From the IMG/VR virus record IMGVR_UViG_3300034095_001584: a stretch of DNA of 64,000 nt, one strand, 5' to 3'. This DNA is from a virus. Taxonomy: Duplodnaviria; Heunggongvirae; Uroviricota; Caudoviricetes. The notes under the pieces were generated by a model. It had not been told where the DNA came from. It saw nothing but the letters and a program-made list of their open reading frames with translations, and searched no databases. Position 1 is the stretch's first letter. Each line of letters opens with the position of its first letter. Both the position numbers and the translations under genes were made by a program. Shown here piece after piece: positions 7,294-38,213 of this stretch.

Positions 7294-7294
7294 T

Positions 7295-12439: not shown

Positions 12440-13209
12440 ACAATATTCCAGATTTTATTTAATACAAAATGTGAAGCTTGATTTCTAAAATTTAAATCAC
12501 CACACAAGTGAAAAACATTAATACAATCATTTATATGAACAACTGGATCTATTCTTCTGTTTAATTCATCTGTATAATCATAAAAAAAGTTTTGTGCATG
12601 CCAAGCTAATACATTATAACTTCTAGGAAGAAGATTTAATCCCATATTTGATTTTGACAATTCAAAGTTTAAAATAGTTTGGTCATTTAAATCATCTGCT
12701 TTATTGTGAATTGCAAATTCATTTTTATTTTTAAAATAGAATTCTTGGGTTTTTTTAAATACTTCTCTATGAGATTTATTTACAATAATAAATCCTGAAT
12801 TAAAATATGTATCCCACGTTACAAATTCATCTTCTTTATAAAAATGATCTTTAAATAATCTAACTAATCTATTTAACTGTGGACCAAATCCATTATCTAA
12901 AACAGCAGTAAACTTTCCGTTTGTCAATTCAAAAAAATTTTTACAATTTTTTGTTGGAATTGTATCATGATCTACTATTGCCATTTGATCATATTCAATT
13001 CCATTTTTATCAATTATGTCCATGGTCCACATTTTTTGCATTTGTGGTACAATATAATCAAAATTTGCAATTGGGGTGTCAATTATAAAAAAATCACAAT
13101 TATTTTTCTCACACCATTTTTTCCATCCTATTTTACAAAATTTAACAAAATCTGGTTCTACTTGGTTTATATCTTTTTTGAAATCCGGCATCACTACTAT
13201 ATTTTTCAT
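12436..13209 (-). CDS. GT8/GT34-like glycosyltransferase
   Basis: WCEKNN, IVDHDT DxD, YFNSGF, DQTILN. Confidence 0.75.
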   Translation of the reverse strand: MKNIVVMPDFKKDINQVEPDFVKFCKIGWKKWCEKNNCDFFIIDTPIANFDYIVPQMQKMWTMDIIDKNGIEYDQMAIVDHDTIPTKNCKNFFELTNGKFTAVLDNGFGPQLNRLVRLFKDHFYKEDEFVTWDTYFNSGFIIVNKSHREVFKKTQEFYFKNKNEFAIHNKADDLNDQTILNFELSKSNMGLNLLPRSYNVLAWHAQNFFYDYTDELNRRIDPVVHINDCINVFHLCGDLNFRNQASHFVLNKIWNIV

Positions 13210-14069
13210 AGGATTGATTCTATAACTTTCTTTGTTGTTAACTTATCTTTTGTGTACTTTAATAATATATCAACATATTCATCATAAAAATTTAATATAT
13301 TATCTTCTTTGTTTATTATATTCATAACCTTAATTATTATGTCTTTTGGAAAATGACTCATTGTATATTTAGGACATTTTTCCAATTCAGGAAAATATGG
13401 AATACAACCGTTCATTAATATTTCATAATGTCGTAAACAATCCCATCCGCCTTTTTTAAAGGTTACTCCAAAATATGATTTTTGATAATCTTCATAATAA
13501 GGAAATTCTTCAGTGAATATATAAGTCTGAGGATCACCAGGAATTACATAACCATAATCTTTTTCTTTTTTTGGTACTGAATTTAATACTAATTCCTCTG
13601 GTATACAAAATCCAATTGGTCTCAATTCTTCACTTGGTTCATAAACTAACTCTCTTTTAAAATAAATACCTTTACCAAAAAAATTACGGTTTATAGTAGT
13701 ATTATCTTCACCGTCAATAATGATAATATCTTTTTTATTGTATATTGAAGTTATTTCATTAAATAATAAACTGTTTCTTGTTATAGACCCATACACAATC
13801 TTATCAAAAAATTTATTTTTTATTTTTTCATGTAAATTAGATCTGTCTATGTTAATTCTTGGTAATTTTCCATATAACGTGAACCCTCTACCATATGACA
13901 TTCCATTTTCTGGTACTCTATGATTCCAATACTGTTTCATGTCATCATACATGTACCATGCATCATTACAGTCTACACAACTATCACCAAACACTGACCT
14001 CAGTCCATGAAAAATCATGTCACTTTGAAAATCAGGTAAATCAAAATTTGAAATATAGAGTATTTTCAT
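13206..14069 (-). CDS. GT-B-like glycosyltransferase
   Basis: IDGED, YFKRE, GGWDCLRHYEILMNGCIPYF. Confidence 0.7.
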   Translation of the reverse strand: MKILYISNFDLPDFQSDMIFHGLRSVFGDSCVDCNDAWYMYDDMKQYWNHRVPENGMSYGRGFTLYGKLPRINIDRSNLHEKIKNKFFDKIVYGSITRNSLLFNEITSIYNKKDIIIIDGEDNTTINRNFFGKGIYFKRELVYEPSEELRPIGFCIPEELVLNSVPKKEKDYGYVIPGDPQTYIFTEEFPYYEDYQKSYFGVTFKKGGWDCLRHYEILMNGCIPYFPELEKCPKYTMSHFPKDIIIKVMNIINKEDNILNFYDEYVDILLKYTKDKLTTKKVIESIL

Positions 14070-14075
14070 TTTATA

Positions 14076-14627
14076 TCAATCATTTATTTTATATCCAAAT
14101 ATAAATGCGTCATGATTTTGACCTGCATATAATGTAGATTTAAACCCTAAATTGATATAGTCTTCAAAAGTCCAATGTGATATATGTTTTTCATATACAT
14201 TTCCATACATTTCATCTTGATGATTTACACCATGAGGAGTTTCAATCATCATATATTTAAAATATGGATTTAACCTTTCAAATGTTTTTATTGCTTCATC
14301 TTTACTTACATGTTCTGGTCCATGTTGCCATAAAAACAAGTCATATTTTTTATCAGGTGTATAATTTCTAATATCATCACATATTGCTTTTATACTTGGT
14401 TGTGTGATTGATTTTAAGTTTGGTTCATAGATTTCAACAATAGTTACTTGCTTATTTTGTGATATCAAGTAATCTACAAATGTTTTGTCAGAATCATGTC
14501 TCCACCCAACCATTAAGATATCTTTTGTTACTTTAAATAAATTATCTACTTTATCTTTAAAATGAATATCAAGAAAATCTTCATTATTGTTTCTATTTTT
14601 GAATTGAGATGTAAATGTATATGACAT
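14076..14627 (-). CDS. class I SAM methyltransferase-like protein
   Basis: ILMVG..., IVEIYEPN, CDDIR, YDLFLWQHGPEHV. Confidence 0.65.
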   Translation of the reverse strand: MSYTFTSQFKNRNNNEDFLDIHFKDKVDNLFKVTKDILMVGWRHDSDKTFVDYLISQNKQVTIVEIYEPNLKSITQPSIKAICDDIRNYTPDKKYDLFLWQHGPEHVSKDEAIKTFERLNPYFKYMMIETPHGVNHQDEMYGNVYEKHISHWTFEDYINLGFKSTLYAGQNHDAFIFGYKIND

Positions 14628-14628
14628 A

Positions 14629-15363
14629 TTATTTTGGTATTATATCTAATAATTGATCAAAAGTCAAGAATCCCGTATTTGTTTTTGTATGTTTATTTGA
14701 GGCGTGATGAATCAATAATTGTTCTAATTTATCTACAGGATATACCTTTTCCAACGTATTAGGCAAACCAGGCCATAAATTTGACTTATAAAAATTTGAA
14801 GCGGCTGCTTCTAAACCAGGACCTAGATTTAGAGTAAATTGATTATTTGATATGAATTTTTTAAGATGCCTTTGTTCTAGTAGATAACATCCTTGATGAA
14901 CATTGTTTAATGTAAAATACAATTTATTATTTATTGTTTTAAATGTTGGTAGATGATTGTGTGTACAACCAGGCATAAATTCATTTAAATACTTTTTGTT
15001 ATTACAGTCTTCATATCTTATGAATCCAACAGTGGTATTATCATCTAATAGACTGTTTTCTTCTATAAATGTATCAAGTGTTGATTCATTTATTATGATA
15101 TCATTTTCTAAATATAGAAATAGATCATAATCATTAATAGATATTGGAATATGTTTTCTGTGTTCTGTAACTAAGTTTTCTTTTATAGATTTATCATATG
15201 TAATAACTTTTACATTATTCAATAAATAAATAGGATTGACTGGTTCTGTTGTATAGATTATGACATCAAGTTTATATTTTTTATAAGATAAAACCGTTTC
15301 TAATACTTTATAAAATTCACTATGGTTAGTGAATGATGCGATATAACATAATATTTTTTTCAT
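14629..15363 (-). CDS. GT-A-like protein
   Basis: YDLFLYLENDIII, VGFIRYE, NVHQGCYLL; similar to 42722-43498. Confidence 0.55.
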   Translation of the reverse strand: MKKILCYIASFTNHSEFYKVLETVLSYKKYKLDVIIYTTEPVNPIYLLNNVKVITYDKSIKENLVTEHRKHIPISINDYDLFLYLENDIIINESTLDTFIEENSLLDDNTTVGFIRYEDCNNKKYLNEFMPGCTHNHLPTFKTINNKLYFTLNNVHQGCYLLEQRHLKKFISNNQFTLNLGPGLEAAASNFYKSNLWPGLPNTLEKVYPVDKLEQLLIHHASNKHTKTNTGFLTFDQLLDIIPK

Positions 15364-16019
15364 ACTTTTATAATATTGTGGAATTTGTTTCTGTAATATA
15401 CTTGTGGGTTAAATCCCGGATCACAATAAATATTACACTTTAAATTAAATAAATCCATTAACACTGGTGAGGATGTACATCCAAAGTGTCTTTCTTTAGA
15501 TTTTACTGAATACCATACATTTTTTTCAAACGGAGTATTATACGGGTCTAGTTCAGTTACGTCTGAAGGCATCATTTTTTTCCATATTGGCCAATAACCG
15601 TTTTTTTGATGTGCAACTTCCATTGTTACTTTTTCATGTGGTATATCATCAAATTCAATTAATGTTGGTACATAATCATGATCTACACCTAGTCCATGTC
15701 GTTCCGCATAATATTGGGGAACATAGTCATTTAATGTAACCGATCTATAAAATCCAAAATTAAGATAAGATCCTGTGATACCAAAATCTGATGGATTAAA
15801 ATCAAAATTTCTAGAGTCTAATGCATTAGATCCAACATCAACATATGTAATTTCTTGTGTAAATGGTTGGTGACGTAGAAATTTATCTATTATTGGATAC
15901 ATATAGTAATTTTTTGTTACTACAAAGTGTACTTTTTCTTTGTGTGTTTTATAATACCATGATGCAACTGGCCATAATAAGAAAAAATCTCCAATCCAAC
16001 TAACATTTGTAAATATCAT
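15360..16019 (-). CDS. GT9-like (GT-B) protein
   Basis: N-terminal IGDFFLLWP motif; similar layout to 44580-45308. Confidence 0.45.
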   Translation of the reverse strand: MIFTNVSWIGDFFLLWPVASWYYKTHKEKVHFVVTKNYYMYPIIDKFLRHQPFTQEITYVDVGSNALDSRNFDFNPSDFGITGSYLNFGFYRSVTLNDYVPQYYAERHGLGVDHDYVPTLIEFDDIPHEKVTMEVAHQKNGYWPIWKKMMPSDVTELDPYNTPFEKNVWYSVKSKERHFGCTSSPVLMDLFNLKCNIYCDPGFNPQVYYRNKFHNIIKV

Positions 16020-16031
16020 AATAATATATTT

Positions 16032-16694
16032 TTATTTTTTTAAATGAAATACTGCAAAACCAAACCACCATTTATCATCCAAGTGAGCAAAGTTACTATC
16101 TACAATTGAACCTTTTTCTAATTCAACTTTATATAATATTTCTAATCCAAGTTCTGAAATAGCATCATATGTTCCCTCTCTTACACCCCATCCACTAGTG
16201 TCCCAATCATCTACACATAATATAAATTCATCCGCAAAAGATTTATAAAAATGAGTTATTCCACTTTTATGTTCATTATATGAATGGTGACCATCATAAA
16301 GATAAACATTTATGTTTTGTATTTGATTGGTATCAATGTTTTTATAATCCGTGTTATAAAAATTTTTTGGGGTATTGCCAATTATTTTTGTAAAATTATT
16401 TAGAAATGCATTTTTAGTTCCTTCTGGACCTAATTGACTAGGAAATTCACTGTAATTATCAATTAGAAAATAATCATCTACATTTTTAGAATATAAAGAT
16501 GATATTGAAGTACTACCTTTATAACAACCAACTTCTAAATACCTATCACCTGATTTTATTAAATTGTTGAGTAGATGTCTAATCTTTGGACTTGAACATC
16601 CTTCTAACATACGTATTTCATCAGTAATGTTTGATTCACATTCAATTGCTTTTGATACTGCAGTTTTAATTCTTTCTGTGTAATTGTTTTTCAT
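16032..16694 (-). CDS. class I SAM methyltransferase (Methyltransf_24-like)
   Basis: YLEVGCYKGST, YLYDGHH, CVDDW; start MKNN at 16694. Confidence 0.85.
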   Translation of the reverse strand: MKNNYTERIKTAVSKAIECESNITDEIRMLEGCSSPKIRHLLNNLIKSGDRYLEVGCYKGSTSISSLYSKNVDDYFLIDNYSEFPSQLGPEGTKNAFLNNFTKIIGNTPKNFYNTDYKNIDTNQIQNINVYLYDGHHSYNEHKSGITHFYKSFADEFILCVDDWDTSGWGVREGTYDAISELGLEILYKVELEKGSIVDSNFAHLDDKWWFGFAVFHLKK

Positions 16695-17428
16695 GGTCTT
16701 AATATATCTATAAAATCTATTCCTTGACATGGAATATTAAATTTTTCTATTAATTTAAATAAAATTCCTTCACCACATCTCCAATCCGGTCTTACTATTG
16801 ATAAATAATAGTTTAAATTGTAAAATAAACTGCAGTATGTGTTCATATATGTATCATTTGATATTGCAAAAAAATCATGTATATGATCATGATGCACTTG
16901 ACTTGATACATTCATTATATTTGGGTTTATATTCTCATATATCAATTTATAACGATAAGTAACATCAAATCTGGCTCGTATTACAAGATCATAATTTATA
17001 TTACTTTCTTTTGAGTACAATTCTTTTTGTAAATTTGACATCATTATGCTATACCACATACTGTGGATCATATTTACAAAATATTTTGCTCCATCAGGAT
17101 TGTTAAAATGATTACATTTTGATTCCCATAGTGGTTTAAAATAATGTTCTACTTTTTCTCCATTTATTATATTAACATTAAAAGTTTTTGGTTTTTCAAA
17201 TAAGAATTTTTTTGGCTTATATAAATCTAATATTTTACTATTGATGTTTACGTCTTGTGTGACATTTCTCCATATTCCGTCATTTCTAAATTGATAACTT
17301 TTATCTTCATCTATCCATGAATGAACAAATACATCAACATCATAACCACGTATTAAATTTTCATAAATATTTGGAAACGCTTTTTCAACAAAACGGGGTT
17401 GGCCTGATAGACATAATGCAATTTTCAT
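16691..17428 (-). CDS. glycosyltransferase-like protein
   Basis: MKIALCLSGQPR, VFVHSW, YDLVIRARFD, HDFFAI. Confidence 0.6.
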   Translation of the reverse strand: MKIALCLSGQPRFVEKAFPNIYENLIRGYDVDVFVHSWIDEDKSYQFRNDGIWRNVTQDVNINSKILDLYKPKKFLFEKPKTFNVNIINGEKVEHYFKPLWESKCNHFNNPDGAKYFVNMIHSMWYSIMMSNLQKELYSKESNINYDLVIRARFDVTYRYKLIYENINPNIMNVSSQVHHDHIHDFFAISNDTYMNTYCSLFYNLNYYLSIVRPDWRCGEGILFKLIEKFNIPCQGIDFIDILRP

Positions 17429-17430
17429 AA

Positions 17431-17751
17431 TTAACAAATATACTTGTCAGTTGGATCTGAAGGGGTTCTAATTACTAATATTTCAGTATCTTCTAGAAAA
17501 TTACTCTCAGAGATTTCATTAGGAAGAAATACAAATATATCTCCTTTATTTAACAGTTTACCGCAAATATTAACTTTTCCATTTAAAACTAAATTGTATT
17601 CAGTGCTTTTTGCATGATAATGTTTTATCCCAACAAATCCTTTTGGATGAAATTGAACTGATACTTCAAAATTTTCATTTTTAAATAATGATGGTTCAAA
17701 ATTACCTAAGAACCATCCATTTTTAAAATTTTTAATGTTATCATAAATCAT
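17431..17751 (-). CDS. cupin-domain protein
   Basis: GWFLGNFEP, HYHAKSTEYNLVLNG, GDIFVF. Confidence 0.8.
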   Translation of the reverse strand: MIYDNIKNFKNGWFLGNFEPSLFKNENFEVSVQFHPKGFVGIKHYHAKSTEYNLVLNGKVNICGKLLNKGDIFVFLPNEISESNFLEDTEILVIRTPSDPTDKYIC

Positions 17752-18908
17752 ATTTTTTGTAATCTATTTTGGTGTCTTCCGCCATCAAATGTATTATTAA
17801 GTATAGAAGTTAGAATATTATTTAAATCTTCATCAGTCTTTATATATTTTGATGAAATTGAGAAAAAGTTTGCGCAATTATGTCTGACTGCATATTCAGC
17901 AAAATATGAATCAACAATTAATGCGGATCTTATTCCTTCTATTTTGTTGGCACATATATTAATTCCTTGTCCACTTCTACAAAAACCAAATCCAAAATCT
18001 GTTTTTTTCTCTATTATTGATTTACAACTAAGTTTTACATAATCTGAGTAATCACAATCATTTTCATTAAATGTACCAAAATCAATATAATTGATATTAT
18101 TTTGATCAAGAAGTTTCTTAAATTTTTCTTTTATTTCAAATCCTGAATGATCAGAACATATTGACGCTATTTTTTTATTTTCTTTCCATGATTTCAATGA
18201 ATTGTTAATAAAAAAATTGTATTCATCTGGAGTACCAAATACATGCATCTTTTCCACTTCTGATGTATATATCTTAAGACCGTCATTAATTAGTAAATTG
18301 TATAATGGACAAATATAGTATTCATTATTTGTTTTTAGATTTTCTTCAATCATCTTTTTTGCATATTTAACAAACAATTTGCCTGATTTGAAATGATATA
18401 ATCCAACAGAAGCATTATTACTTATAACACTTTTTTCTTTTGTTTTAATTACAAATCCTTCATTATTTAATTGTGAATAACTGTAATTAGGAGAATTTGA
18501 TTTAAACGTTAATATACAACCGTCTAAATTTGAATTTATTTGATGTGGATTAAGTTTTTTCTCAAAATAGACATCAGAACAGTGTATTAATAAAGGTAAA
18601 TCATTGTCAATTAACTCTTCAGCTAATAAACAAGAACAAACAGATCCTTCTGTAATTTTATCTGTTACTACTATTTGTATGTCATTTCCAAATTTGCTTT
18701 TTAGGAAACTATCAATACAAAATTCATCAACATGTTCTTTTCTTACTATAAAGATAAGGTTACAATCAGTATAGTCTATACAACTCATTGTCCATTCAAT
18801 GATTGTTTTTTTATCTAATAAAATTAAAGGTTTTGGTGCTATATAAACTTCTTTTGGGAATCTAGAACCTTTTCCTGCAATAGGGATTAACAAATTAAAT
18901 TTTTTCAT
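17748..18908 (-). CDS. sugar nucleotidyltransferase fused to RpiB/LacAB-type sugar-phosphate isomerase
   Basis: LIPIAGKGSRF, PKPLI, EYYICP, GTPDEY then SDHSGF, FCRSGQGINICANKIEGIRSAL, FDGGRHQNRL. Confidence 0.88.
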   Translation of the reverse strand: MKKFNLLIPIAGKGSRFPKEVYIAPKPLILLDKKTIIEWTMSCIDYTDCNLIFIVRKEHVDEFCIDSFLKSKFGNDIQIVVTDKITEGSVCSCLLAEELIDNDLPLLIHCSDVYFEKKLNPHQINSNLDGCILTFKSNSPNYSYSQLNNEGFVIKTKEKSVISNNASVGLYHFKSGKLFVKYAKKMIEENLKTNNEYYICPLYNLLINDGLKIYTSEVEKMHVFGTPDEYNFFINNSLKSWKENKKIASICSDHSGFEIKEKFKKLLDQNNINYIDFGTFNENDCDYSDYVKLSCKSIIEKKTDFGFGFCRSGQGINICANKIEGIRSALIVDSYFAEYAVRHNCANFFSISSKYIKTDEDLNNILTSILNNTFDGGRHQNRLQKI

Positions 18909-19569
18909 TTTTTCTTTCCAATAACCTTTTATATGTATCATCATGAGACATTTGTAGGCTTTTTTTAATTTGTATATTTTTTAACATATTAACAATAAAA
19001 TATGATATGTACATATCACCTGCTCCTAATACATTTACATCATTTATTTCTTGAGTATTTATTACAATTTTTTCTTTTTTATTTGATGATATACTTCCTG
19101 TTTTATGATGTAATATAACCCATCCTTTTGTTAAATTACATAGTGAATCAAAATCAGTAAACATGTCTTCATCTGATATAAAGAGATAATCAACGTATTT
19201 TAATAAATGTACATCTATTGGTTTTCCAACACTTATATCATATGATATCACACCAGTGTTGATGTCTTTAATAAAAGACGTATCCGGTAAATTATTTACA
19301 TATAAAATATGATTCCATTTTGAATCTTTTATACAAGGTGTATTAGTTTTTAAATTTAACTCTGGTTTTGATACTCTAGTTGATGTTGATTTATCAATAT
19401 AAATTAATGCTTGTCCAATAGATGTAGGTTGTAAATTGATTTTTAATGATGGGTCTATTTTTACTAGAGTGCTCCATACATTTGCAATTGAACCAATTGA
19501 ATCTTTTCTTTCAAAGTCTTCAAAAATTATATCCCTTGTTAGGTGGCCATATAAACTAATATCATACAT
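18895..19569 (-). CDS. PfkB-family carbohydrate kinase
   Basis: LYGHLTRD, LFISDED, C-terminal VNVLGAGDMY anion-hole motif. Confidence 0.8.
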   Translation of the reverse strand: MYDISLYGHLTRDIIFEDFERKDSIGSIANVWSTLVKIDPSLKINLQPTSIGQALIYIDKSTSTRVSKPELNLKTNTPCIKDSKWNHILYVNNLPDTSFIKDINTGVISYDISVGKPIDVHLLKYVDYLFISDEDMFTDFDSLCNLTKGWVILHHKTGSISSNKKEKIVINTQEINDVNVLGAGDMYISYFIVNMLKNIQIKKSLQMSHDDTYKRLLERKNEKI

Positions 19570-19571
19570 AA

Positions 19572-20099
19572 TTAAAATTTTTCTTTTTTATCTAATTCAT
19601 ATATTTTTGACATAATTTCTTCGTAAGTCAATGACGGTATTAATTTACTTTTTTCAATATATTCAAATAAATGTAATACTGCATTATTTCCACCAAAAAC
19701 ATTTAATTCAATTGAATGTAATTTAACTATTAATGGTGAATCACTTGTGCAAAATGAATATCCTACTTCTTTCATTATGCCAATATCAAATAAATCATCA
19801 CCAAAATAACAAATATTTTTTCTATCTATATTATATTTTGATTCAATTGTTTTCAATAAAAATTCTTTTGGTATAGATCTACTCAGATAAAAATCAATAT
19901 TTCTATTATCAGCTACTAGTTTATTTATATTTTCATCTCCTGATAAAAATATCACATTGATTCCAAGTGATTTAAATCTTTTAATACTTGTCCAATCTTT
20001 ATCACAGAAAGATTTTAAATATACAGATCCATCTTGACCATAATACTTTTTTCCGTCCGTCATTATTCCATCAACATCTAATATAATTAATTTAATCAT
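19572..20099 (-). CDS. KdsC-like HAD phosphatase
   Basis: ILDVDGIMTDG, LSG, YFGDDLFD, GGNNAV. Confidence 0.85.
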   Translation of the reverse strand: MIKLIILDVDGIMTDGKKYYGQDGSVYLKSFCDKDWTSIKRFKSLGINVIFLSGDENINKLVADNRNIDFYLSRSIPKEFLLKTIESKYNIDRKNICYFGDDLFDIGIMKEVGYSFCTSDSPLIVKLHSIELNVFGGNNAVLHLFEYIEKSKLIPSLTYEEIMSKIYELDKKEKF

Positions 20100-20535
20100 A
20101 ATTTAAAATATAATCACTGCATATACCTATACAATTACTAATATCACCGCTATATCCTACCTCAGGCATTACACAAATGCTTTTTGGATATAAGGTTTTA
20201 TTTGGATAAGTCCATATATAACCTTTACTGGTTAAAATCCAATCTTCATTTGTATGCCAAAATACATTTATATTGTTATATTGCAATAGTATATTAAATG
20301 CATCTCCATTCTTTGCATGTAACCATAACTTATCATTATTCAAAAAATCAAATTTTATCTCAAATACAGGATTGTCATGTCCCAAATACCAATTATTATT
20401 AGTATACCATACATCAATTTCAACATTGTAACCTAATTGTAATGCTTGTATAATATAATCAGGATGATTTTCTTTATCAGCATTAGGTCCGTTAACATTG
20501 CCTCTATGAGATATTAGAAATTTGTTAAATGACAC
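20092..20535 (-). CDS. PLC-like/GDPD-like phosphodiesterase (short)
   Basis: ISHRGN, ENHPDYI, VEIDVW, LGHD, WLHAKN, GICSD. Confidence 0.7.
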   Translation of the reverse strand: MSFNKFLISHRGNVNGPNADKENHPDYIIQALQLGYNVEIDVWYTNNNWYLGHDNPVFEIKFDFLNNDKLWLHAKNGDAFNILLQYNNINVFWHTNEDWILTSKGYIWTYPNKTLYPKSICVMPEVGYSGDISNCIGICSDYILNYD

Positions 20536-20540
20536 GTTTA

Positions 20541-21761
20541 TTACCCTATGATTTTAAATTCTGGACATGGTACAATTAACTTCCCACCTTTCTTGATGAA
20601 TTCACTTTCTCTTTTTTCAAATTCATCAATAAAATGCCAAGGTAAAATTAACAAATAATCAGGATTTCTTGATCTCATTTCTTCTTCTGATATAATTGGA
20701 ATATTTGTACCTATAGTTTTCAATCCAAATTTATAAGGACTTCTCTCAGCAATTGCATCAATTAAAGTATGATCTAATCCAAAATATTGTAATAGAGTAT
20801 TTCCTTTTGTAGATGCACCGTAACCATATATTTTCTTACCTTTGCTTTTTTCTTCTTTAATAAAAGATACGGTTTGTTCTTTTAACTTATTTAGTCTATC
20901 ACCGAAATTTGACCAAACATTTTGATTACTGATGTCATATTTTTCTTTTTCAATTGAAAGAATAGATTCAATTCTAAAATTACAAACATCTCGTAATGGA
21001 GCAGATCCAAACGTAGATTTGTTTGCTACATTTTTTTGAAAGTATACTCTGAAACTGCCGCCATTAGTATCATTTAATTCACAGTCAACTAAATTAAATC
21101 CGTTATCACTAAATAACTTTTTAATAGTTGTTAATGAATAATAATAAATGTGTTCATGACAGATATTATCAAACGCTAATTGATTGATCATTAATGGTGT
21201 ATATGACATTTGTAATACCAATAACCCATCATCATCTAAAATTTCATATAAATCATTGATTACAGGTATTGGATTTTCAATATCATAAAACATTGCAATA
21301 ATAGTAACCACCTTGCATTTTTTATCACCATATCCAGTTTTTTCATATGAACTTTTTGAAAAATAATCTTGTACAACAGTAGCTACTTTTGATGATTCAT
21401 TATAATAAGAATTATCCGCTGGATCAATTCCCAATTTTATAAAATCAAATGGAACATTTTTTAGCAATGTACCGTCATTGCATGCAATATCTAACCAAAT
21501 ATCACCCTTTTTAAATTTAATTCTTGAACATATTTGGTTTACTATGTCACGTAACTGCATTGTCATTGATATATTTATTCCTGATCTATACCAGTATTTT
21601 CCATACATACTATCCAATGGCGCAGATGTTTTTAATCTTGGCGCATTGATTTTTTCATCCAAATATAAGTCTAATGAATATTTTTTAATATTTTCATATG
21701 AATCTGACGGATTCATAAAATCAGATACATAATGTTCACCTAATTCCAATAGTTTTTTCAT
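20541..21761 (-). CDS. NDP-hexose C-methyltransferase
   Basis: YWYRSG, LDIACNDGTLL, DNICHEHIYYYS, NGGSFR, YGASTKGNTLLQ, ILPWHF. Confidence 0.88.
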   Translation of the reverse strand: MKKLLELGEHYVSDFMNPSDSYENIKKYSLDLYLDEKINAPRLKTSAPLDSMYGKYWYRSGINISMTMQLRDIVNQICSRIKFKKGDIWLDIACNDGTLLKNVPFDFIKLGIDPADNSYYNESSKVATVVQDYFSKSSYEKTGYGDKKCKVVTIIAMFYDIENPIPVINDLYEILDDDGLLVLQMSYTPLMINQLAFDNICHEHIYYYSLTTIKKLFSDNGFNLVDCELNDTNGGSFRVYFQKNVANKSTFGSAPLRDVCNFRIESILSIEKEKYDISNQNVWSNFGDRLNKLKEQTVSFIKEEKSKGKKIYGYGASTKGNTLLQYFGLDHTLIDAIAERSPYKFGLKTIGTNIPIISEEEMRSRNPDYLLILPWHFIDEFEKRESEFIKKGGKLIVPCPEFKIIG

Positions 21762-22426
21762 ATTTTAAATCCTTTATTTTCTTCTTCTGTAAATAATTTG
21801 TTATACTTTATATTAGTCTGTATTTGTTTTTCAATTGTTTTGTTGTGGTGTAACGCAAATTCATATTCATATGGTAGATGAACATGTGTTTTTGATCCTT
21901 CCACCTTTTCATGTAATCTACGTTTCCACTCAATATAAGGTAAATTTTTAAATAATCTACCTTGTACATCAGGCCAATTAACAATCAATCTATCCTCATA
22001 GGGAGTCAATTTCCATCCCCATTGTTGGGCGTTTATATGATTAACTCCTCTAAAGTCATTAATACGTGGAATCCAAAATAAATCAATATCTTTATTAAGA
22101 TTAAGTAATTCTTTTAATGATTCTAATAATGTTTCAGTTGGTAATTCATCATCATCAATTTGAAAAATATATTCTCCTTGACATTGACTCTTACCATAGT
22201 TTTTATGTTCACTATAATTTCTATCTAATTTATGTTTATAAATCTTAAAGAAATTATTGTCAGATACGTTATTTAATACTTGTAACGTCAATGGATCATC
22301 ACTGTAATCATCTAAAATAATACATTCATTGTTAGAACCATATTTATACAATCGTTCCAAAAGAGTTTGGAGTTCAAATCCTGTATTTTTTGTTGTTACT
22401 AGATATGATATAAAAATATCATTCAT
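21758..22426 (-). CDS. GT2 glycosyltransferase
   Basis: ISYLVTT, ILDDYS, IFQIDDDE, WIPRIN, WPDVQGR. Confidence 0.85.
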   Translation of the reverse strand: MNDIFISYLVTTKNTGFELQTLLERLYKYGSNNECIILDDYSDDPLTLQVLNNVSDNNFFKIYKHKLDRNYSEHKNYGKSQCQGEYIFQIDDDELPTETLLESLKELLNLNKDIDLFWIPRINDFRGVNHINAQQWGWKLTPYEDRLIVNWPDVQGRLFKNLPYIEWKRRLHEKVEGSKTHVHLPYEYEFALHHNKTIEKQIQTNIKYNKLFTEEENKGFKI

Positions 22427-22430
22427 ATTG

Positions 22431-23762
22431 TTACAATTTTTTAAGAGTTGGTAATTCAATTTTATTTAGTTTTGGTGCCTCAATTTTTTTCAATTTAGGC
22501 AACACCAGTGTACGTTCAACTGAAAATTCAGGAACGTATTTATTTAAAATTTCATGTAATCTAACATCCATTGCTTGAATACTAAATTTTTGTTCATTTT
22601 CAACTCTTAACTTTTCATAGTCTTCCAAAATATCTTTTGATAGACTATTATACAATTTCTTTAGTTTATCTGATGCCAGACTTTGTGACACATAAAACCA
22701 AGAAGATTCTTTGATCAACCAATCATTTACTGATCCCGGATCAATTGGTTTAACTGTTCCTTCAAAAAATTCCGCATACTTAGGATTCAAGAAATCTAAA
22801 TGTCCGCTCCAATTTGAAACAACAGTTGGTTTTCCACTTAATGTTGATAACAAAATTGGATGTCCAAATCCTTCACCATGAGTAAAATTGACATGTACCT
22901 TTACTTTTTCATGATTGAATAATGCATTCATCTCAACTGGACTTAGTTCTCCGTGAATTAAATATACATTTGGAACATTACCTCCAACTAAAGATTGAAC
23001 TTTTTTTATTTTCTTTAAAATGTCTTCTCTATCAACTTTTGAGAAATTTGCTCCATTAGTCTTTATGATTAAACAGGGTCTATTATCTGTTTTTGAATCT
23101 TTAAATGTTTCAGAGAATACCTTGATTAAAGTAGCAATGTCCTTTCTGTCAGTAAATAATCCACCATGCGTCCATTGGCCAACAAATAAAAATGCAAATT
23201 TTTCTGGAATTGTTGACATTACATCATCAACGTTTTGAACTTTTTCATCTGTTTTCTTGTAAATTGATGTGTCAGCACCCCAGAAACATACTTCAATTGG
23301 TTTTTCACTTTTTAATGGTTCTACTTTGCCATCTTGATATTGTTTTTGGTATTGTGCAGATTCAAATACTTTCTTTACATGATTACTTGTAACAATATTC
23401 ATGTTCATCTTATTTAAACCTTCAATGAATTGACCAGATGCCGCAGTAGTTTCAATACCAGCGGTAATACCAATATTATATTTACCTATTGATTGGAATT
23501 CATTTGGAATGCTAATCTGTACAAATAGATCAGGTTGTTTTTGTAGAGGAGCAGTTAAAAAGTGACTGAATAACTTTTTATCTTCTTCAGATGTAAGATC
23601 TGAATCAGTTATTTTTGATGGACATCCACCCCATCTTGTAGGAGCAATTTTAACATCATATTTATTATATCTAATGATACTTTTTGCAAGATCTGTTGCC
23701 AAATCACCATAACCGCTTCTACTGAAGACTGGTCCTTGAATTACACATAATGGTTTATTCAT
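22431..23762 (-). CDS. GT4 (GT-B) glycosyltransferase
   Basis: PVFSRSGYG, GITAGIET, FLFVGQW, THGEGFGHP. Confidence 0.85.
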   Translation of the reverse strand: MNKPLCVIQGPVFSRSGYGDLATDLAKSIIRYNKYDVKIAPTRWGGCPSKITDSDLTSEEDKKLFSHFLTAPLQKQPDLFVQISIPNEFQSIGKYNIGITAGIETTAASGQFIEGLNKMNMNIVTSNHVKKVFESAQYQKQYQDGKVEPLKSEKPIEVCFWGADTSIYKKTDEKVQNVDDVMSTIPEKFAFLFVGQWTHGGLFTDRKDIATLIKVFSETFKDSKTDNRPCLIIKTNGANFSKVDREDILKKIKKVQSLVGGNVPNVYLIHGELSPVEMNALFNHEKVKVHVNFTHGEGFGHPILLSTLSGKPTVVSNWSGHLDFLNPKYAEFFEGTVKPIDPGSVNDWLIKESSWFYVSQSLASDKLKKLYNSLSKDILEDYEKLRVENEQKFSIQAMDVRLHEILNKYVPEFSVERTLVLPKLKKIEAPKLNKIELPTLKKL

Positions 23763-23766
23763 AAAT

Positions 23767-24429
23767 TTATCCTAGTTTTTGTTCTCTTTCTTTAATTGCA
23801 TCAATATATTTTTTTTGTGGTGTTACTGTACTGTTATTGTTTTTCTCATACAATTCAGCAATGTTTTTAATTTGTTGTTTGGTGTCTGTACTGCCAAAAC
23901 CACCTTCACCTCTATTAGTAGAATCTAATTCATCTACTAACACAAATTCAACGTTTTCTACCTTAGTCACTTTGAGTTGACACACTTTATCACCTTTATT
24001 ATAGAGTTTAGTAGAGTTAACATATCCTTCCAATAGATTATCTGTTCTAATTTTATAATCTTCTGGTTGCCAGATATACTTGAAACGAAGTAATACTTCA
24101 CCACGATAATCTGCGTCAATTAATCCAATACAGTTGGCTAATACTAGATTGTACTTACTAACACTACTACGAGGAAATGCTAGAATATCATAGTCCAAAT
24201 CAGTGTAACCAAAGTTACTAAATACTCTATCTTTTTGTACAGCTAACTTAAGATTGGTTTTATATTGAATATAATCAATACGTTTGTATGCACCATTCTC
24301 ATACTTTTCACCAATAATTTCAGGATCACTGGTGACAATCACATCAAATCCAGTAGCTCTATCAGTACCTTTCTTGGGTAGATTATCTACGGATTGATAA
24401 GTTTCATTCTTTAATACTTGAATCTTCAT
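23767..24429 (-). CDS. dut: trimeric dUTPase
   Basis: All five motifs: ATGFDV, PRSS, GLIDADYRGE, GDKVCQL, RGEGGFGST. Confidence 0.93.
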   Translation of the reverse strand: MKIQVLKNETYQSVDNLPKKGTDRATGFDVIVTSDPEIIGEKYENGAYKRIDYIQYKTNLKLAVQKDRVFSNFGYTDLDYDILAFPRSSVSKYNLVLANCIGLIDADYRGEVLLRFKYIWQPEDYKIRTDNLLEGYVNSTKLYNKGDKVCQLKVTKVENVEFVLVDELDSTNRGEGGFGSTDTKQQIKNIAELYEKNNNSTVTPQKKYIDAIKEREQKLG

Positions 24430-25412
24430 AGTTTAGATAGTGTAGTATCAATTTCTGATTTTAATTTGTCAATGTTAATCTTAGGAACTTCTACACCAAA
24501 CGTATTATGTGGTTGTGAATTACCAACACAATCAGATGTTGTATGAATAGAAAACCCAGGTTCTGGAATAAAGTTATTAATAGTATAATCCATTGCCTTG
24601 ATGAATTGAGCACACATATTCTTGGCATTAATACCACCTTCATTCATTGCCCATCTACGACCTTCCAAACCACACTTTTCACGTTGTTCTGGTGTCATTA
24701 GATACCAATACATGATTGCTTCAGCAGCTTCTTCCCATGTACATACATCATCAAAGATATATGGAGTTGGTACACTTCCTTGAATTGTTTTAACTGCGGG
24801 CCAAATTGGCTTAGCCCACACACCATGATTTCTATATTTTCCAGTACTATTAGTGCCAAATTCAAGGGTAAATTCAAATGGTTTGCCTTCATTATCTACT
24901 TGACCAATTTGATCTTGTAACCCTCCAGTTACCGTAGTAATTACTGGAGTACCACACATAATTGATTCAGCAATACTCAATCCAAATCCTTCATTGGAAC
25001 TGATTAGAATTGTAACATCTGCAATATTGTACATTGCACACATTTCTTCTGGACTAATCTTATGTTCAACAAATACTACGTCATAATTTGGACACAGAGC
25101 AGTAATTACTTCTGGTAAGTCTGTACCTGCGTCTTGTACTTTTTCTGTATGTAATACCAATACACACTTAGCAGCTTGTTCTGGTGTTAGATTGTCACAG
25201 AATGCTCTAAAAGCTAATACTGCGTTACTTGTCTTTTTACGTTGAACGTTACGACTGTTGTAGAATAATACAAAGTCATATTGTTTATCACCAAATAGTT
25301 GCTTTTTCTTTTCTTTGATCAACTTATGATCCGCAGCTAGTGGTATAAATACATCACTGTTGATACCGTGAGGAACTAAATGTAATAGATGTTTTTTATT
25401 TTTAAATGGCAT
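24426..25412 (-). CDS. GT4 glycosyltransferase, C-terminal (donor-binding) half
   Basis: Starts VPHGIN, YNSRNVQRK, SSNEGFGLSIAES, TGGLQDQ. Confidence 0.85.
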   Translation of the reverse strand: MPFKNKKHLLHLVPHGINSDVFIPLAADHKLIKEKKKQLFGDKQYDFVLFYNSRNVQRKKTSNAVLAFRAFCDNLTPEQAAKCVLVLHTEKVQDAGTDLPEVITALCPNYDVVFVEHKISPEEMCAMYNIADVTILISSNEGFGLSIAESIMCGTPVITTVTGGLQDQIGQVDNEGKPFEFTLEFGTNSTGKYRNHGVWAKPIWPAVKTIQGSVPTPYIFDDVCTWEEAAEAIMYWYLMTPEQREKCGLEGRRWAMNEGGINAKNMCAQFIKAMDYTINNFIPEPGFSIHTTSDCVGNSQPHNTFGVEVPKINIDKLKSEIDTTLSKL

Positions 25413-25419
25413 AACTTTA

Positions 25420-25950
25420 TTAAACTGTTTGGTTTTCTACTTCATCTAATGAGAAACAATTTTCTGCTCCCAATACGTGTTTAGCAATATTATTTGATTG
25501 TTTACTAATAGCAAACAATGCGTCACAACTCTGATAAAATGGTCTATTCCACATTGGATATGGCAAATCATCCCAAATATGAAGATACGTCAATGGTAAT
25601 TTGGCTCTAACTTGTTTTTCAATAGCATATAACCATCCCCAGAATCTAGGATCAGTAAAATGCATGATTGCGTCAGGTTTTTCTGATTGAATAACAGAAA
25701 ATAACATTTGTTCATTTCCATAACCATCGGTAGGATACAATTTGATATTTGCATCTGGTACTTTTGTCAAATCTCTTGTTGCTTGATTTAAGTCAACAAT
25801 TTTACCTGCTTCTGGATGTTTGATTGCACCTGCAATTTGAACCCAATCATAGTGATGAACTGTACCCAAGGCCAATTCTCTAGACATAGTTGCAATACCA
25901 CTATGCATTCTTAAATCATCTGATAGTAATAATATTTTCTTTTTCTTCAT
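25420..25950 (-). CDS. GT4 glycosyltransferase, N-terminal half
   Basis: KILLLSDDLRMHSGIATM, PDAIMHFTDPRFW, IWDDLPYP, AISKQS. Confidence 0.8.
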   Translation of the reverse strand: MKKKKILLLSDDLRMHSGIATMSRELALGTVHHYDWVQIAGAIKHPEAGKIVDLNQATRDLTKVPDANIKLYPTDGYGNEQMLFSVIQSEKPDAIMHFTDPRFWGWLYAIEKQVRAKLPLTYLHIWDDLPYPMWNRPFYQSCDALFAISKQSNNIAKHVLGAENCFSLDEVENQTV

Positions 25951-25956
25951 AAATTG

Positions 25957-26181: not shown

Positions 26182-26204
26182 ATATACGTATATACATATA
26201 TACG
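26181..26204. repeat. three tandem 8-bp repeats TATATAC(g/a) including a 14-bp palindrome
   Basis: tatatacg tatataca tatatacg; 26181-26194 is self-complementary; abuts the RHH start codon. Confidence 0.8.
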
Positions 26205-26224
26205 GCAGTTAAGGTAGATTTATT

Positions 26225-38202: not shown

Positions 38203-38213
38203 AATAATAACAT

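What the first reader, a model, noticed from the sequence alone, without database searches (positions are those of the whole stretch)
17431..20535. Unexplained five-gene sugar-activation module: cupin, nucleotidyltransferase-RpiB fusion, PfkB kinase, KdsC-like phosphatase, PLC-like enzyme
Seen: five overlapping or abutting minus-strand genes, including an NTP-transferase fused to a full RpiB domain. Known: isomerase, kinase, phosphatase and nucleotidyltransferase is the logic of ADP/GDP-heptose (GmhA/HldE/GmhB) and Kdo synthesis, but no GmhA, KdsA or KdsD is present. Inference: a parallel, possibly undescribed route to an activated pentose, pentitol or rare sugar, with the cupin as an epimerase.
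Basis: partly seen in the sequence, partly recalled or inferred. Interest (0 to 1): 0.7.

Follow-up and report, generated by a model that had tools for sequence, protein, structure and literature searches.

The report
Phage cassette for an activated pentose
An uncultured large phage carries a tightly packed set of enzymes, shared by hundreds of other aquatic phage contigs, that most likely turns a common pentose phosphate into a nucleotide-activated sugar (probably ribose) for glycan building; the product has not been identified and no paper found here describes the set.

Summary
They are a small cupin, a nucleotidyltransferase::RpiB fusion, a minimal PfkB kinase, a KdsC-type HAD phosphatase and a 147-aa mini-GDPD (the 'PLC-like' protein). 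A sixth gene belongs with them: DUF7796 (16691-17437), predicted to be a GT-A glycosyltransferase.

The set co-occurs, same strand and nearly the same order, in cultured cyanophages Bellamy and SynMITS9220M01. IMG/VR holds 193 contigs with the fusion. In 88 fetched fusion loci: kinase 87, HAD 83, mini-GDPD 77, cupin 62, DUF7796 61.

The logic is isomerase, kinase, phosphatase, nucleotidyltransferase, as in NDP-heptose synthesis. The closest precedent is the recently described phage UDP-D-arabinofuranose route (RB69/DLP3/HY126), also fed by ribulose-5-P. With RpiB replacing arabinose-5-P isomerase, the most likely product is NDP-D-ribofuranose. That is inferred, not shown.

Gene fusions elsewhere tie this nucleotidyltransferase family to mini-GDPD, HAD, GT2, GT61 and kinase domains. 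I found no sign of a DNA target.

This scan met the same cassette before on other DNA, also without a product. Verdict: a new variant of a known kind.

The parts
20092..20535 (-). Mini-GDPD (147 aa): a reduced glycerophosphodiester-phosphodiesterase / PLC-like protein. Role unknown; possibly a sugar cyclic-phosphate phosphodiesterase.
   Evidence: HRG, EN, ExD and HD motifs with invariant H10 R11 N23 E39 D41 H53 H73 K75. PDB profile hit to GDPD at E 2e-3. AF2 pLDDT 94, Foldseek best hits are GDPDs at E 5e-3. phrog_34507. Found in 77-79 related loci. Fused to the NT family in P0128, P0136, P0164, P0165, P0195 and P0236.
19572..20099 (-). KdsC/YrbI-type HAD-IIIA phosphatase (175 aa). Proposed to remove the distal (5-) phosphate of the sugar bisphosphate.
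   Evidence: TIGR01670 83.2 bits (cut-off 106.95) and KDN-9-P phosphatase 74 bits. Profile against PDB: 2p9j 2e-26, KdsC and BT1713 about 1e-21. Invariant D8 and D10 (DxD), K78, and G100 D101 D102 / D105. Present in 83 of 88 fusion loci, directly upstream of the kinase.
18895..19569 (-). Minimal PfkB (ribokinase-superfamily) kinase (224 aa). Proposed anomeric kinase acting on the aldose phosphate.
   Evidence: PfkB Pfam hit 19 bits, below the 25.8 cut-off. A 15-sequence profile hits YdjH, ribokinases and nucleoside kinases at E 1e-6 to 1e-5. Invariant D13, G26, N30, D111 and the G182-x-G184-D185 motif. Present in 87 of 88 fusion loci.
17748..18944 (-). Nucleotidyltransferase::RpiB fusion (398 aa as listed; probable start at 18908, about 386 aa). 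The RpiB domain is the aldose-ketose phosphate isomerase; the NT domain forms the NDP-sugar.
   Evidence: Pfam and NCBIfam. RpiB residues aligned to solved RpiBs: SDHsG, C-R-S-G-Q-G (canonical C-G-T-G), RHNcAN, GGRHqnR. The NT domain keeps AGxGxRF and PKPL; its nearest solved structure is 4EVW, of unknown function, at 1e-27. 1289 homologues by word-index search, 193 IMG/VR contigs.
17431..17751 (-). Small metal-type cupin (106 aa), an accessory member. Role unknown; possibly an isomerase or epimerase.
   Evidence: Cupin motif 1 with invariant H44 H46 E51. PDB profile hits KdgF and Cupin_2 at E 2e-4 to 8e-4. Atlas neighbours are Cupin_2 clusters, score 0.96. phrog_24762. Present in 62-64 loci and absent from type II loci.
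16691..17437 (-). DUF7796 protein (248 aa; likely start at the MKIAL Met, 17428): a GT-A-fold glycosyltransferase and the probable user of the NDP-sugar.
   Evidence: PF25072 33.5 bits, above the 27 cut-off. AF2 pLDDT 83 and pTM 0.86; Foldseek hits GT6 and GT8 retaining glycosyltransferases at E about 5e-6, probability 1.0. Follows the cupin in Bellamy and SynMITS9220M01. In 61-64 loci, often in two or three copies. In the nearest relative, L005, a WavE-like protein takes its place.

Best explanation
The five ORFs plus the adjacent DUF7796 gene form one co-transcribed cassette. It draws a sugar phosphate from the host pentose-phosphate/Calvin pool and turns it into a nucleotide-activated sugar for a dedicated glycosyltransferase.

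Proposed steps:
1. The RpiB domain converts ribulose-5-P to ribose-5-P.
2. The minimal PfkB kinase phosphorylates the anomeric hydroxyl, giving ribose-1,5-bisphosphate.
3. The KdsC-type HAD removes the 5-phosphate, giving ribose-1-P. Kinase plus phosphatase together do the work of a phosphomutase.
4. The nucleotidyltransferase domain makes NDP-D-ribofuranose. The nucleotide is unknown.
5. The GT-A protein DUF7796 transfers the sugar to a soluble or cytoplasmic-face acceptor within a larger methylated glycan.

The mini-GDPD belongs to the pathway. Its step is unknown. My guess is hydrolysis of a sugar 1,2-cyclic phosphate to the 1-phosphate, either as salvage or as supply. The cupin is an optional tailoring or isomerase step.

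Shown: the domain identities, the intact catalytic motifs, the conserved linkage, and the fusions of the nucleotidyltransferase family to mini-GDPD, HAD, kinase and glycosyltransferase domains.

Inferred: every substrate, the order of kinase and phosphatase, the identity of the sugar and the acceptor.
For: 1. Domains and catalytic residues are intact.
2. Linkage is conserved. The order HAD-kinase-NT::RpiB-cupin-DUF7796 appears in the cultured cyanophages Bellamy and SynMITS9220M01. In 88 fusion loci the counts are kinase 87, HAD 83, mini-GDPD 77, cupin 62, DUF7796 61, all on one strand.
3. There is a described precedent with the same four steps from the same precursor. In phages RB69, DLP3 and HY126 the route is ribulose-5-P to Araf5P (isomerase), to Araf1,5P2 (AfhE kinase domain), to Araf1P (AfhF HAD), to UDP-Araf (AfhE NT domain); AfhE and AfhF were assayed in HY126 according to PMC13326640.
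4. The link to that route is more than analogy. The S-SKS1 variant of this NT family (NT::RibB) sits beside homologues of the RB69 gp52 kinase (30% identity, 1e-14) and the gp51 HAD (30%, 8e-14). P0267 has an NT domain followed by what reads, by eye, as an APH-like kinase region, like AfhE.
5. The RpiB domain scores best as RpiB: 104 bits against 50-62 bits for LacA, LacB and DerI. It aligns end to end with solved ribose-5-P isomerases.
6. The product is used by glycosyltransferases. DUF7796 has a GT-A fold. The same NT family is fused to GT2 and GT61 domains (read by eye).
7. The mini-GDPD is fused between NT and HAD domains in six representative proteins (GDPD domain E 2e-9 to 4e-50; 1e-43 or better in five). 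Five of the six end in a domain with two HxTx motifs, as in 2H cyclic phosphodiesterases.
8. Variants without a kinase carry a beta-phosphoglucomutase-like HAD_2 fused to the NT (S-CAM9; a SAR11-like genome). This fits kinase plus phosphatase being equivalent to a mutase.
Against: - No substrate or product has been measured for any member.
- RpiB-family enzymes also act on hexose phosphates (allose-6-P, galactose-6-P) and erythrulose-4-P. The domain is below the RpiB equivalog cut-off (104 against 139 bits). It also has an invariant Arg next to the catalytic Cys where RpiB has Gly, so the substrate may not be ribulose-5-P.
- The only PfkB kinase known to me that phosphorylates an anomeric hydroxyl is the heptose kinase HldE/HldA. 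The solved relatives nearest to this kinase are 5'-kinases.
- No NDP-ribofuranose donor is known in biology. As far as I know, characterised ribofuranosylation uses PRPP.
- A GDP-mannose-3,5-epimerase-like SDR abuts the cassette in 9 loci, and extended SDRs are present in 69 of 88 loci. These normally act on NDP-pyranoses.
- Type II loci place a transketolase-like pair after the fusion, which would also fit a heptulose route.
- The roles of the cupin and the mini-GDPD are guesses.
Confidence: 0.45

Rival explanations
1. Same four-step logic, but the sugar is a heptose or a hexose. The RpiB domain would act on sedoheptulose-7-P (standing in for GmhA) or on psicose-6-P. The PfkB kinase would act like HldE/HldA and the HAD like GmhB. 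The NT would make an NDP-heptose or NDP-allose, which neighbouring SDRs and the cupin then modify.
For: The PfkB kinase, HAD-IIIA phosphatase and NTP_transferase are the same superfamilies as HldE-N/HldA, GmhB and HddC. None of five complete or near-complete phage genomes with the cassette has a GmhA-type SIS_2 gene above cut-off. Extended SDRs are in 69 of 88 loci, and a GME-like SDR abuts the HAD gene in 9. A transketolase-like pair follows the fusion in 12 loci. GHMP-kinase/cupin/NT sets of the HddA/HddC type lie next to the cassette in Bellamy and others. An earlier scan note reports RpiB also fused to an HldE-domain-II-type transferase (e1-5772864; not checked here).
Against: RpiB's known ketose substrates have the opposite C3 configuration to sedoheptulose and fructose (my knowledge). 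No HldA/HldE structure appears among the kinase's PDB hits at E<1. The GmhB model scores 18.6 bits against a 178 cut-off, whereas KdsC-type models score 70-83 bits. No GT9 heptosyltransferase was seen in the operon. The SDRs in the window lie on the other strand with their own RmlA. Transketolase can equally supply ribose-5-P.
Confidence: 0.2
2. The nucleotidyltransferase activates a terminal phosphate ester rather than a sugar-1-phosphate. It would make NDP-5-ribose, NDP-ribulose or, after reduction, a CDP-ribitol-like donor for phosphodiester-linked substituents. The mini-GDPD would handle phosphodiesters.
For: There are weak IspD hits on the NT domain (E 0.002). A relative is fused to RibB, whose product 3,4-dihydroxy-2-butanone-4-P has no anomeric carbon. 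Another relative is fused to a RuBisCO-like protein. A phosphodiesterase-fold protein is a constant partner. LicC-type relatives of this fold make CDP-alcohols (my knowledge; LicC also appears as a structural neighbour of the AfhE NT domain in PMC13326640).
Against: This reading leaves the near-universal kinase and phosphatase without a role. The partner transferase is a GT-A fold, and the NT family is fused to GT2 and GT61 domains, which use NDP-sugars. No reductase, LicD, TagF or Stealth-type phosphotransferase is in the cassette. The best NT models are sugar-1-P transferases: RmlA-long, the archaeal GlmU type, and 4EVW.
Confidence: 0.1
3. The cassette makes the sugar donor for DNA hypermodification, as in RB69. 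It would not serve a protein or polysaccharide glycan.
For: The design matches the UDP-Araf route for 5-hydroxycytosine arabinosylation. In the window the operon lies next to the PolB gene, as the RB69 cluster does, and contains a dUTPase-like gene and a PD-(D/E)XK nuclease. None of about 25 operon proteins has a membrane-spanning segment.
Against: No homologue of the RB69 ThyA-like 5hoC synthase or of its transferases (gp46/47) was found in the window, and none in the phage loci; the single hit, in L093, lies in a SAR11-like bacterial genome. Four of five complete or near-complete phage genomes with the cassette have no ThyA-family gene at all. The surrounding genes are GT2, GT4, GT-A, O- and C-methyltransferases and, elsewhere, sulfotransferases, which are typical of glycans.
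Confidence: 0.05
4. The genes are not one pathway. The RpiB domain is a metabolic helper that boosts ribose-5-P for nucleotide synthesis, and the other genes serve unrelated glycan steps.
For: Cyanophages carry many pentose-phosphate genes (background in PMC12801897). Stand-alone RpiB genes occur in other phages.
Against: The isomerase is covalently fused to the nucleotidyltransferase in more than 1000 database proteins. HAD, kinase and fusion are contiguous in nearly every locus across divergent phage lineages.
Confidence: 0.05

Closest known systems
Phage UDP-D-arabinofuranose pathway of RB69, DLP3 and HY126 (arabinose-5-P isomerase; AfhE bifunctional kinase/uridylyltransferase; AfhF HAD phosphatase). 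Source: PMC13326640.
   Same: A phage-encoded route from ribulose-5-P through pentose-5-P, pentose-1,5-bisphosphate and pentose-1-P to an NDP-pentofuranose. The NT is of the MurU/LicC/RmlA fold, the phosphatase is a HAD, and one enzyme is a fusion that includes the NT. Variants of the present NT family (S-SKS1) sit beside true homologues of the RB69 kinase and phosphatase.
   Different: The isomerase is RpiB, not a SIS-fold arabinose-5-P isomerase, so the expected sugar is the C2 epimer. The kinase is PfkB, not APH-like. The HAD is KdsC-type, not AfhF-type. The NT is fused to the isomerase, not the kinase. NT similarity to RB69 gp53 is marginal (hhalign E 0.0017, probability 16%). The transferase is GT-A, not GT-B. 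No ThyA-like base hydroxylase accompanies it. A cupin and a mini-GDPD are added.
ADP-L-glycero-beta-D-manno-heptose and GDP-D-glycero-alpha-D-manno-heptose pathways (GmhA; HldE or HldA/HldC, or HddA/HddC; GmhB).
   Same: Isomerase, anomeric kinase, distal phosphatase and nucleotidyltransferase. The kinase (PfkB), phosphatase (HAD-IIIA) and NT (NTP_transferase, as in HddC) belong to the same superfamilies.
   Different: There is no SIS-fold GmhA. The phosphatase is KdsC-type, not GmhB. No GT9 heptosyltransferase is present. The isomerase belongs to a family whose known substrates are pentose, hexose and tetrose phosphates, not heptoses.
Type II phosphomannose isomerase / GDP-mannose pyrophosphorylase (AlgA, ManC, WbpW). 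From my knowledge; not tested here.
   Same: One polypeptide joins an NTP_transferase domain to an aldose-ketose phosphate isomerase. The two domains catalyse the first and last steps of one NDP-sugar pathway, and a separate enzyme moves the phosphate to C1.
   Different: There the isomerase is a cupin and the middle step is a phosphomutase. Here the isomerase is RpiB and the middle step is a kinase plus a phosphatase.
Kdo pathway (KdsD, KdsA, KdsC, KdsB).
   Same: It starts from ribulose-5-P and uses a KdsC-fold phosphatase.
   Different: No KdsD, KdsA or KdsB is present. The HAD scores below the KdsC cut-offs. The NT is not of the CMP-Kdo synthetase family.
PRPP-dependent ribofuranosylation of bacterial glycans (phosphoribosyltransferase plus phosphoribosyl phosphatase). 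From my knowledge.
   Same: It would deliver the same residue, D-ribofuranose, from ribose-5-P, with a HAD phosphatase removing a 5-phosphate.
   Different: The donor there is PRPP, not an NDP-sugar, and dephosphorylation follows transfer. No PRPP synthetase or phosphoribosyltransferase fold is in this cassette.

Membership tests
RpiB/LacA/LacB sugar-phosphate isomerases | Full domain above the family cut-off, with catalytic Cys, the Asp-His pair, His-Asn, and GGRHxxR phosphate-binding residues. | tested here: met
   TIGR00689 121.7 bits against 88.3; PF02502 at 8e-36. D265 H266, C322, H355 N356 and R390 H391 R394 are invariant and align to solved RpiBs.
RpiB proper (ribose-5-P isomerase B equivalog) | Score above the equivalog cut-off; canonical C-G-T-G active-site loop. 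| tested here: not met
   TIGR01120 104.3 bits against 138.65; PRK05571 120 against 135. The loop is C-R-S-G with an invariant Arg. Substrate not testable here.
PfkB / ribokinase superfamily kinases | C-terminal GAGD anion-hole and catalytic Asp motif; N-terminal substrate-binding Asp and GG/N motif; about 300 aa with a lid. | tested here: inconclusive
   The G-x-G-D motif, D13 and N30 are invariant, and the profile hits ribokinase-family structures at 1e-6. However, Pfam gives 19 bits against 25.8 and the length is only about 220 aa.
KdsC (Kdo-8-P phosphatase) | Score above the KdsC cut-off, and genomic company of KdsA, KdsB and KdsD. | tested here: not met
   TIGR01670 83.2 bits against 106.95; PRK09484 69.5 against 208. 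No KdsA, KdsB or KdsD in the operon. The fold and subfamily are KdsC/YrbI-like.
NDP-heptose pathway (GmhA, HldE or HddA, GmhB, HldC or HddC) | SIS-fold sedoheptulose-7-P isomerase GmhA. | tested here: not met
   No SIS domain in any operon ORF. No SIS_2 above cut-off in five complete or near-complete phage genomes with the cassette.
NDP-heptose pathway (GmhA, HldE or HddA, GmhB, HldC or HddC) | GmhB-type phosphatase and a GT9 heptosyltransferase. | tested here: not met
   GmhB model 18.6 bits against 178. No GT9 among the operon's Pfam hits.
Phage UDP-arabinofuranose pathway (API, AfhE, AfhF) | SIS arabinose-5-P isomerase, an NT::APH-like kinase fusion, and an AfhF-type HAD. | tested here: not met
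   tblastn with RB69 gp51, gp52, gp53 and gp55 against the window gives nothing below E 0.02. hhalign of the NT profile against gp53 gives E 0.0017, probability 16%.
Phage UDP-arabinofuranose pathway (API, AfhE, AfhF) | Coupling to a ThyA-like 5-hydroxy-dCMP synthase and DNA glycosyltransferases. | tested here: not met
   No ThyA-like hit in the window; among the loci only L093, a SAR11-like bacterial genome, has one. PF00303 is absent from 4 of 5 complete or near-complete genomes with the cassette.
Glycerophosphodiester phosphodiesterase (GDPD, PLC-like superfamily) | Catalytic His/Arg, Glu/Asp metal ligands and a second His, within a complete (beta/alpha)8 barrel of about 220-250 aa. | tested here: inconclusive
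   The motifs are present and invariant. PDB profile E 2e-3. Foldseek best hits are GDPDs at E 5e-3, TM 0.34-0.5. No Pfam hit, and only 147 aa.
Cupin superfamily | Motif 1 G-x5-HxH-x3,4-E-x6-G, and motif 2 with a further His. | tested here: inconclusive
   Motif 1 is present and invariant, but there is no invariant His in the motif-2 region. PDB profile hits are at 2e-4. No Pfam or NCBIfam hit.
GT-A fold glycosyltransferases (DUF7796) | Rossmann-like GT-A fold with an acidic metal-binding motif. | tested here: met
   AF2 pLDDT 83; Foldseek hits GT6 and GT8 enzymes at E about 5e-6, probability 1.0, but with modest TM 0.4-0.5. Invariant Y149 D150, R156 and D158. Donor and acceptor not testable here.

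The most novel reading that the evidence does not exclude
The cassette makes NDP-D-ribofuranose. That would be the first nucleotide-activated ribofuranosyl donor and a route independent of PRPP. The mini-GDPD (and, in large fused relatives, a 2H domain) would convert ribose 1,2-cyclic phosphate to ribose-1-P. This would either salvage the breakdown product of a labile 1,2-cis furanosyl nucleotide or supply the 1-phosphate without a kinase. The sugar would then decorate virion proteins of abundant aquatic phages.
Probability: 0.3. Interest if true: 0.75.

Novelty: new variant of a known kind. Interest (0 to 1): 0.6.

Why it matters
The cassette is common. The fusion protein alone has more than 1000 relatives in public data and sits on at least 193 IMG/VR contigs. 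Two phages that carry it are in culture, so the hypothesis can be tested directly.

If the product is NDP-ribofuranose or another undescribed nucleotide sugar, it would add a donor to the known repertoire. It would also add a second phage example of the isomerase, 1-kinase, phosphatase, nucleotidyltransferase design that was first seen for heptose and recently for arabinofuranose.

It would give functions to four unassigned protein families: the 4EVW-like nucleotidyltransferases, the mini-GDPD, DUF7796 and this small cupin.

The whole 25-gene glycan operon lacks membrane proteins. That points to glycosylation of a soluble target such as virion proteins, which is little explored in aquatic phages.

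Tried and rejected
Context came from the search for related loci and annotated phage records instead.
- Kdo-type route: rejected. There is no KdsA, KdsB or KdsD, and the NT is not KdsB-like.
- DUF7796 as a WavE relative: hhalign against a Brachyspira WavE protein gave nothing (probability 0.2%). WavE-like proteins do replace DUF7796 in some loci, but homology is not shown.
- Apparent 751-aa 'kinase-NT-RpiB' triple fusion in L091: an artefact of an upstream open frame in high-GC DNA.
- The 217-223-aa proteins beside the NT in S-CAM9 and S-SKS1, first taken for kinases: they are DUF7796 paralogues.
- DNA-modification reading: tested and not supported.
- Promoter and terminator scan of the operon: counts at or below shuffled expectation and no internal terminator in the cassette; uninformative.
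- Literature searches for the fusion, the cassette, WavE function, or a transketolase/RpiB capsule route found no description.
- The Atlas look-up only confirmed the cupin and the weak GDPD affinities.
- The nearest held virus record, G001, is a 49-kb fragment without ThyA; uninformative.

Full report
**Setting.** The window has low G+C (24-38%) and is viral. It encodes a T4-type family B DNA polymerase (phrog_262, E 6e-181), a clamp-loader-like AAA protein, UvdE, a lysozyme-domain protein, and collagen-repeat and LamG-domain proteins. The polymerase is 45% identical to that of Microcystis phage Mel-JY01 and under 32% identical to those of the Synechococcus and other T4-like phages listed after it. 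The window's own assembly is not held. The finding lies inside a run of about 25 minus-strand genes (27133 down to 8251) made up of glycosyltransferases, methyltransferases and unknowns.

**Observation.** All five ORFs are at the stated coordinates and overlap or abut.
- The 398-aa ORF joins an NTP_transferase domain to a complete RpiB domain. Aligned with solved ribose-5-P isomerases, it keeps SDHxG, the catalytic Cys, RHNxAN and GGRHxxR. The loop reads C-R-S-G instead of C-G-T-G, and the Arg is invariant in 24 homologues.
- The 224-aa ORF is a minimal PfkB kinase. It has the GAGD motif and conserved N-terminal Asp and Asn, and its profile hits ribokinase-family structures at about 1e-6.
- The 175-aa ORF is a KdsC/YrbI-type HAD that scores below the KdsC cut-offs.
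- The 106-aa ORF carries cupin motif 1 with invariant HxH...E.
- The 147-aa ORF has the HRG, EN, ExD and HD motifs of glycerophosphodiester phosphodiesterases in a protein about 60% of normal length. A confident model (pLDDT 94) finds GDPDs first, but weakly.

**A sixth member.** The next gene downstream, DUF7796 (16691-17437), follows the cupin in the same way in Bellamy and SynMITS9220M01. Its model (pLDDT 83) matches GT-A retaining glycosyltransferases of families GT6 and GT8 at E about 5e-6. It is the likely user of the product.

**Co-occurrence.** The fusion has 1289 relatives in the word-index search, many from Tara and other marine data. It lies on 193 IMG/VR contigs, of which 80 were fetched. 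In 88 fusion-bearing loci, clustering of same-strand ORFs gives kinase 87, HAD 83, mini-GDPD 77, extended SDR 69, cupin 62 and DUF7796 61; HMM searches agree.
- HAD, kinase and fusion are contiguous almost everywhere.
- The mini-GDPD moves. It is upstream of the HAD here and after the cupin in most loci.
- A second locus type lacks the cupin. It has, right after the fusion, a split minimal transketolase-like pair, a WavE-like protein and two sulfotransferases.
- Genome-collection hits with the whole fusion are short MAG contigs. Stand-alone or HAD_2-fused NT relatives occur in real bacterial contexts: a SAR11-like single-cell genome, Brachyspira, and Firmicutes. There they sit with an APH-like kinase and a HAD_2 phosphatase.

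**Known analogue.** In RB69, DLP3 and HY126 the route runs as follows:
1. Ribulose-5-P is isomerised to arabinose-5-P.
2. The C-terminal kinase domain of AfhE phosphorylates it at C1.
3. The HAD AfhF removes the 5-phosphate.
4. The N-terminal domain of AfhE uridylylates the product.

The window cassette has the same four activities in other folds, with RpiB in place of the arabinose-5-P isomerase. The connection is more than analogy. In Synechococcus phage S-SKS1 a member of the same NT family, fused to a RibB domain, sits beside homologues of the RB69 kinase (1e-14) and phosphatase (8e-14) and three DUF7796 paralogues.

**The nucleotidyltransferase family.** A profile of the NT domain finds 12,930 representatives in 1.84 billion clusters. 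My own domain HMMs, run on the best 150, give these architectures:
- single NT hit: 90 (partner domains outside my HMM set not counted);
- tandem NT-NT: 43;
- NT-RpiB: 10;
- NT, mini-GDPD, NT: 6;
- KdsC-type HAD, NT: 1.

In five of the six NT, mini-GDPD, NT proteins a HAD motif (DxDG) lies between the mini-GDPD and the second NT, and the C-terminal domain bears two HxTx motifs, the signature of 2H cyclic phosphodiesterases (the assignment rests on the motifs). Other partners, read by eye, are GT2, two GT61-like repeats, an APH-like kinase (P0267) and longer PLC/GDPD-like domains. One relative (P0223) is fused to a RuBisCO-like protein, confirmed against PDB at 1e-46. These fusions show three things:
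- The mini-GDPD works with the NT.
- The product feeds glycosyltransferases.
- The family repeatedly recruits enzymes of pentulose-phosphate chemistry (RpiB, RibB, RuBisCO-like).

**Mechanism proposed.**
1. Ribulose-5-P is converted to ribose-5-P (RpiB domain).
2. Ribose-5-P is converted to ribose-1,5-bisphosphate (PfkB kinase).
3. The bisphosphate is converted to ribose-1-P (HAD).
4. Ribose-1-P is converted to NDP-ribofuranose (NT domain).
5. The sugar is transferred by DUF7796.

Variants without a kinase carry a beta-phosphoglucomutase-like HAD_2 fused to the NT. This fits kinase plus phosphatase being equivalent to a mutase. The fusion of NT with the isomerase recalls type II PMI-GMP enzymes such as AlgA (my knowledge).

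For the mini-GDPD I suggest hydrolysis of a sugar 1,2-cyclic phosphate to the 1-phosphate. This is by analogy with PhnP acting on phosphoribosyl cyclic phosphate and with 2H enzymes acting on ADP-ribose 1'',2''-cyclic phosphate (my knowledge). It is untested.

All substrates are inferred. I put about 0.75 on the general logic and about 0.4 on ribose.

**Rivals.**
- A heptose or hexose product remains possible. The superfamilies match the heptose pathway. No GmhA is present in five complete or near-complete phage genomes with the cassette. GME-like and other SDRs are frequent neighbours. A transketolase-like pair occurs in some loci.
- Activation of a terminal phosphate (a CDP-ribitol-like donor) is weakened by the GT-A, GT2 and GT61 partners and by the unexplained kinase and phosphatase.
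- A DNA target like that of RB69 is unlikely. No ThyA-like gene is in the window; among the fetched loci the only hit lies in a SAR11-like bacterial genome. Four of five complete or near-complete genomes with the cassette lack the ThyA family altogether.

**Target.** None of the operon's roughly 25 proteins has a hydrophobic segment that passes a simple transmembrane test. No flippase, polymerase or initiating phosphoglycosyl transferase was seen. The acceptor is therefore probably soluble or at the cytoplasmic face. Virion proteins are an obvious candidate, but nothing here shows it.

**Novelty.** My searches found no paper describing the cassette. The scan has met it several times in other genomes, with the same open question. 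It is a new variant of a known design and can be tested at once in two cultured cyanophages.

Noticed in passing
window 8251-27133 (minus strand): A run of about 25 contiguous genes: GT2 x3, GT4-like, an O-methyltransferase, an NDP-hexose C-methyltransferase-like gene, DUF707-like, DUF6492, a dUTPase-like gene, a PD-(D/E)XK nuclease and six ORFs with no family hit. None has a predicted membrane segment. No flippase, polymerase or initiating transferase was seen.
   Followed up: partly
window 24426-25412 and 25420-25950: The C-terminal (Glycos_transf_1) and N-terminal (Glyco_transf_4, weak) halves of a GT4 enzyme lie in two adjacent ORFs. This is either a split gene or a frameshift.
   Followed up: no
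window 5591-8254 (plus strand): RmlA, an RmlD-like gene and an RmlB-like gene lie divergent from the operon. No RmlC was seen, so the dTDP-rhamnose set is incomplete.
   Followed up: no
window 1076-2290: A phage ORF with a Druantia DruA domain (PF14236, E 6e-23), next to a UvdE UV endonuclease (2322-3236).
   Followed up: no
window 35189-43498 (plus strand): A second block of short co-directional ORFs. It is led by an 812-aa protein that joins a GT1 domain to a GH130 (mannoside phosphorylase-like) domain.
   Followed up: no
window 45931-47487: A 518-aa ORF with DUF5661 and a weak intein-splicing match (23.8 bits, below the cut-off).
   Followed up: no
window 53332-63129 (minus strand): A sulfotransferase, an 1837-aa protein with collagen triple-helix repeats and a 680-aa protein with two LamG/ConA-like domains. 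These are possible fibre proteins and candidate glycan acceptors.
   Followed up: no
L013:7161-8277, L014 and ten other loci: In cassette loci without the cupin, a split minimal transketolase-like pair (215 + 159 aa) directly follows the NT::RpiB gene. Downstream are a WavE-like protein and two sulfotransferases.
   Followed up: partly
P0128, P0136, P0164, P0165, P0236 (database proteins, 1000-1300 aa): Single polypeptides that join NT, mini-GDPD, a HAD, a second NT and a C-terminal domain with two HxTx motifs (2H phosphoesterase-like). Their origin is unknown. The low-complexity linkers suggest eukaryotes or large viruses.
   Followed up: partly
L004 (Synechococcus phage S-SKS1) 4536-8733: NT fused to a full RibB (DHBP synthase) domain. 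It is flanked by three DUF7796 paralogues and by homologues of the RB69 arabinose-pathway kinase and phosphatase. The HAD is annotated 'phosphoheptose isomerase' in both records, which looks like a mis-annotation.
   Followed up: partly
L001 (Bellamy) 10223-17034: A second activation set lies beside the cassette: a tandem NT (524 aa), GT61, a class II aldolase/AraD-like protein, an AfhF-like small HAD, the mini-GDPD, a DUF7796 paralogue, a GHMP kinase, a Cupin_2 protein and an HddC-like NT.
   Followed up: partly
L023:3773-4816 and eight other loci: The SDR directly upstream of the cassette is a close relative of GDP-mannose 3,5-epimerase (E 2e-85 to 2C59). This suggests L-galactose or L-gulose in the same glycan.
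   Followed up: partly
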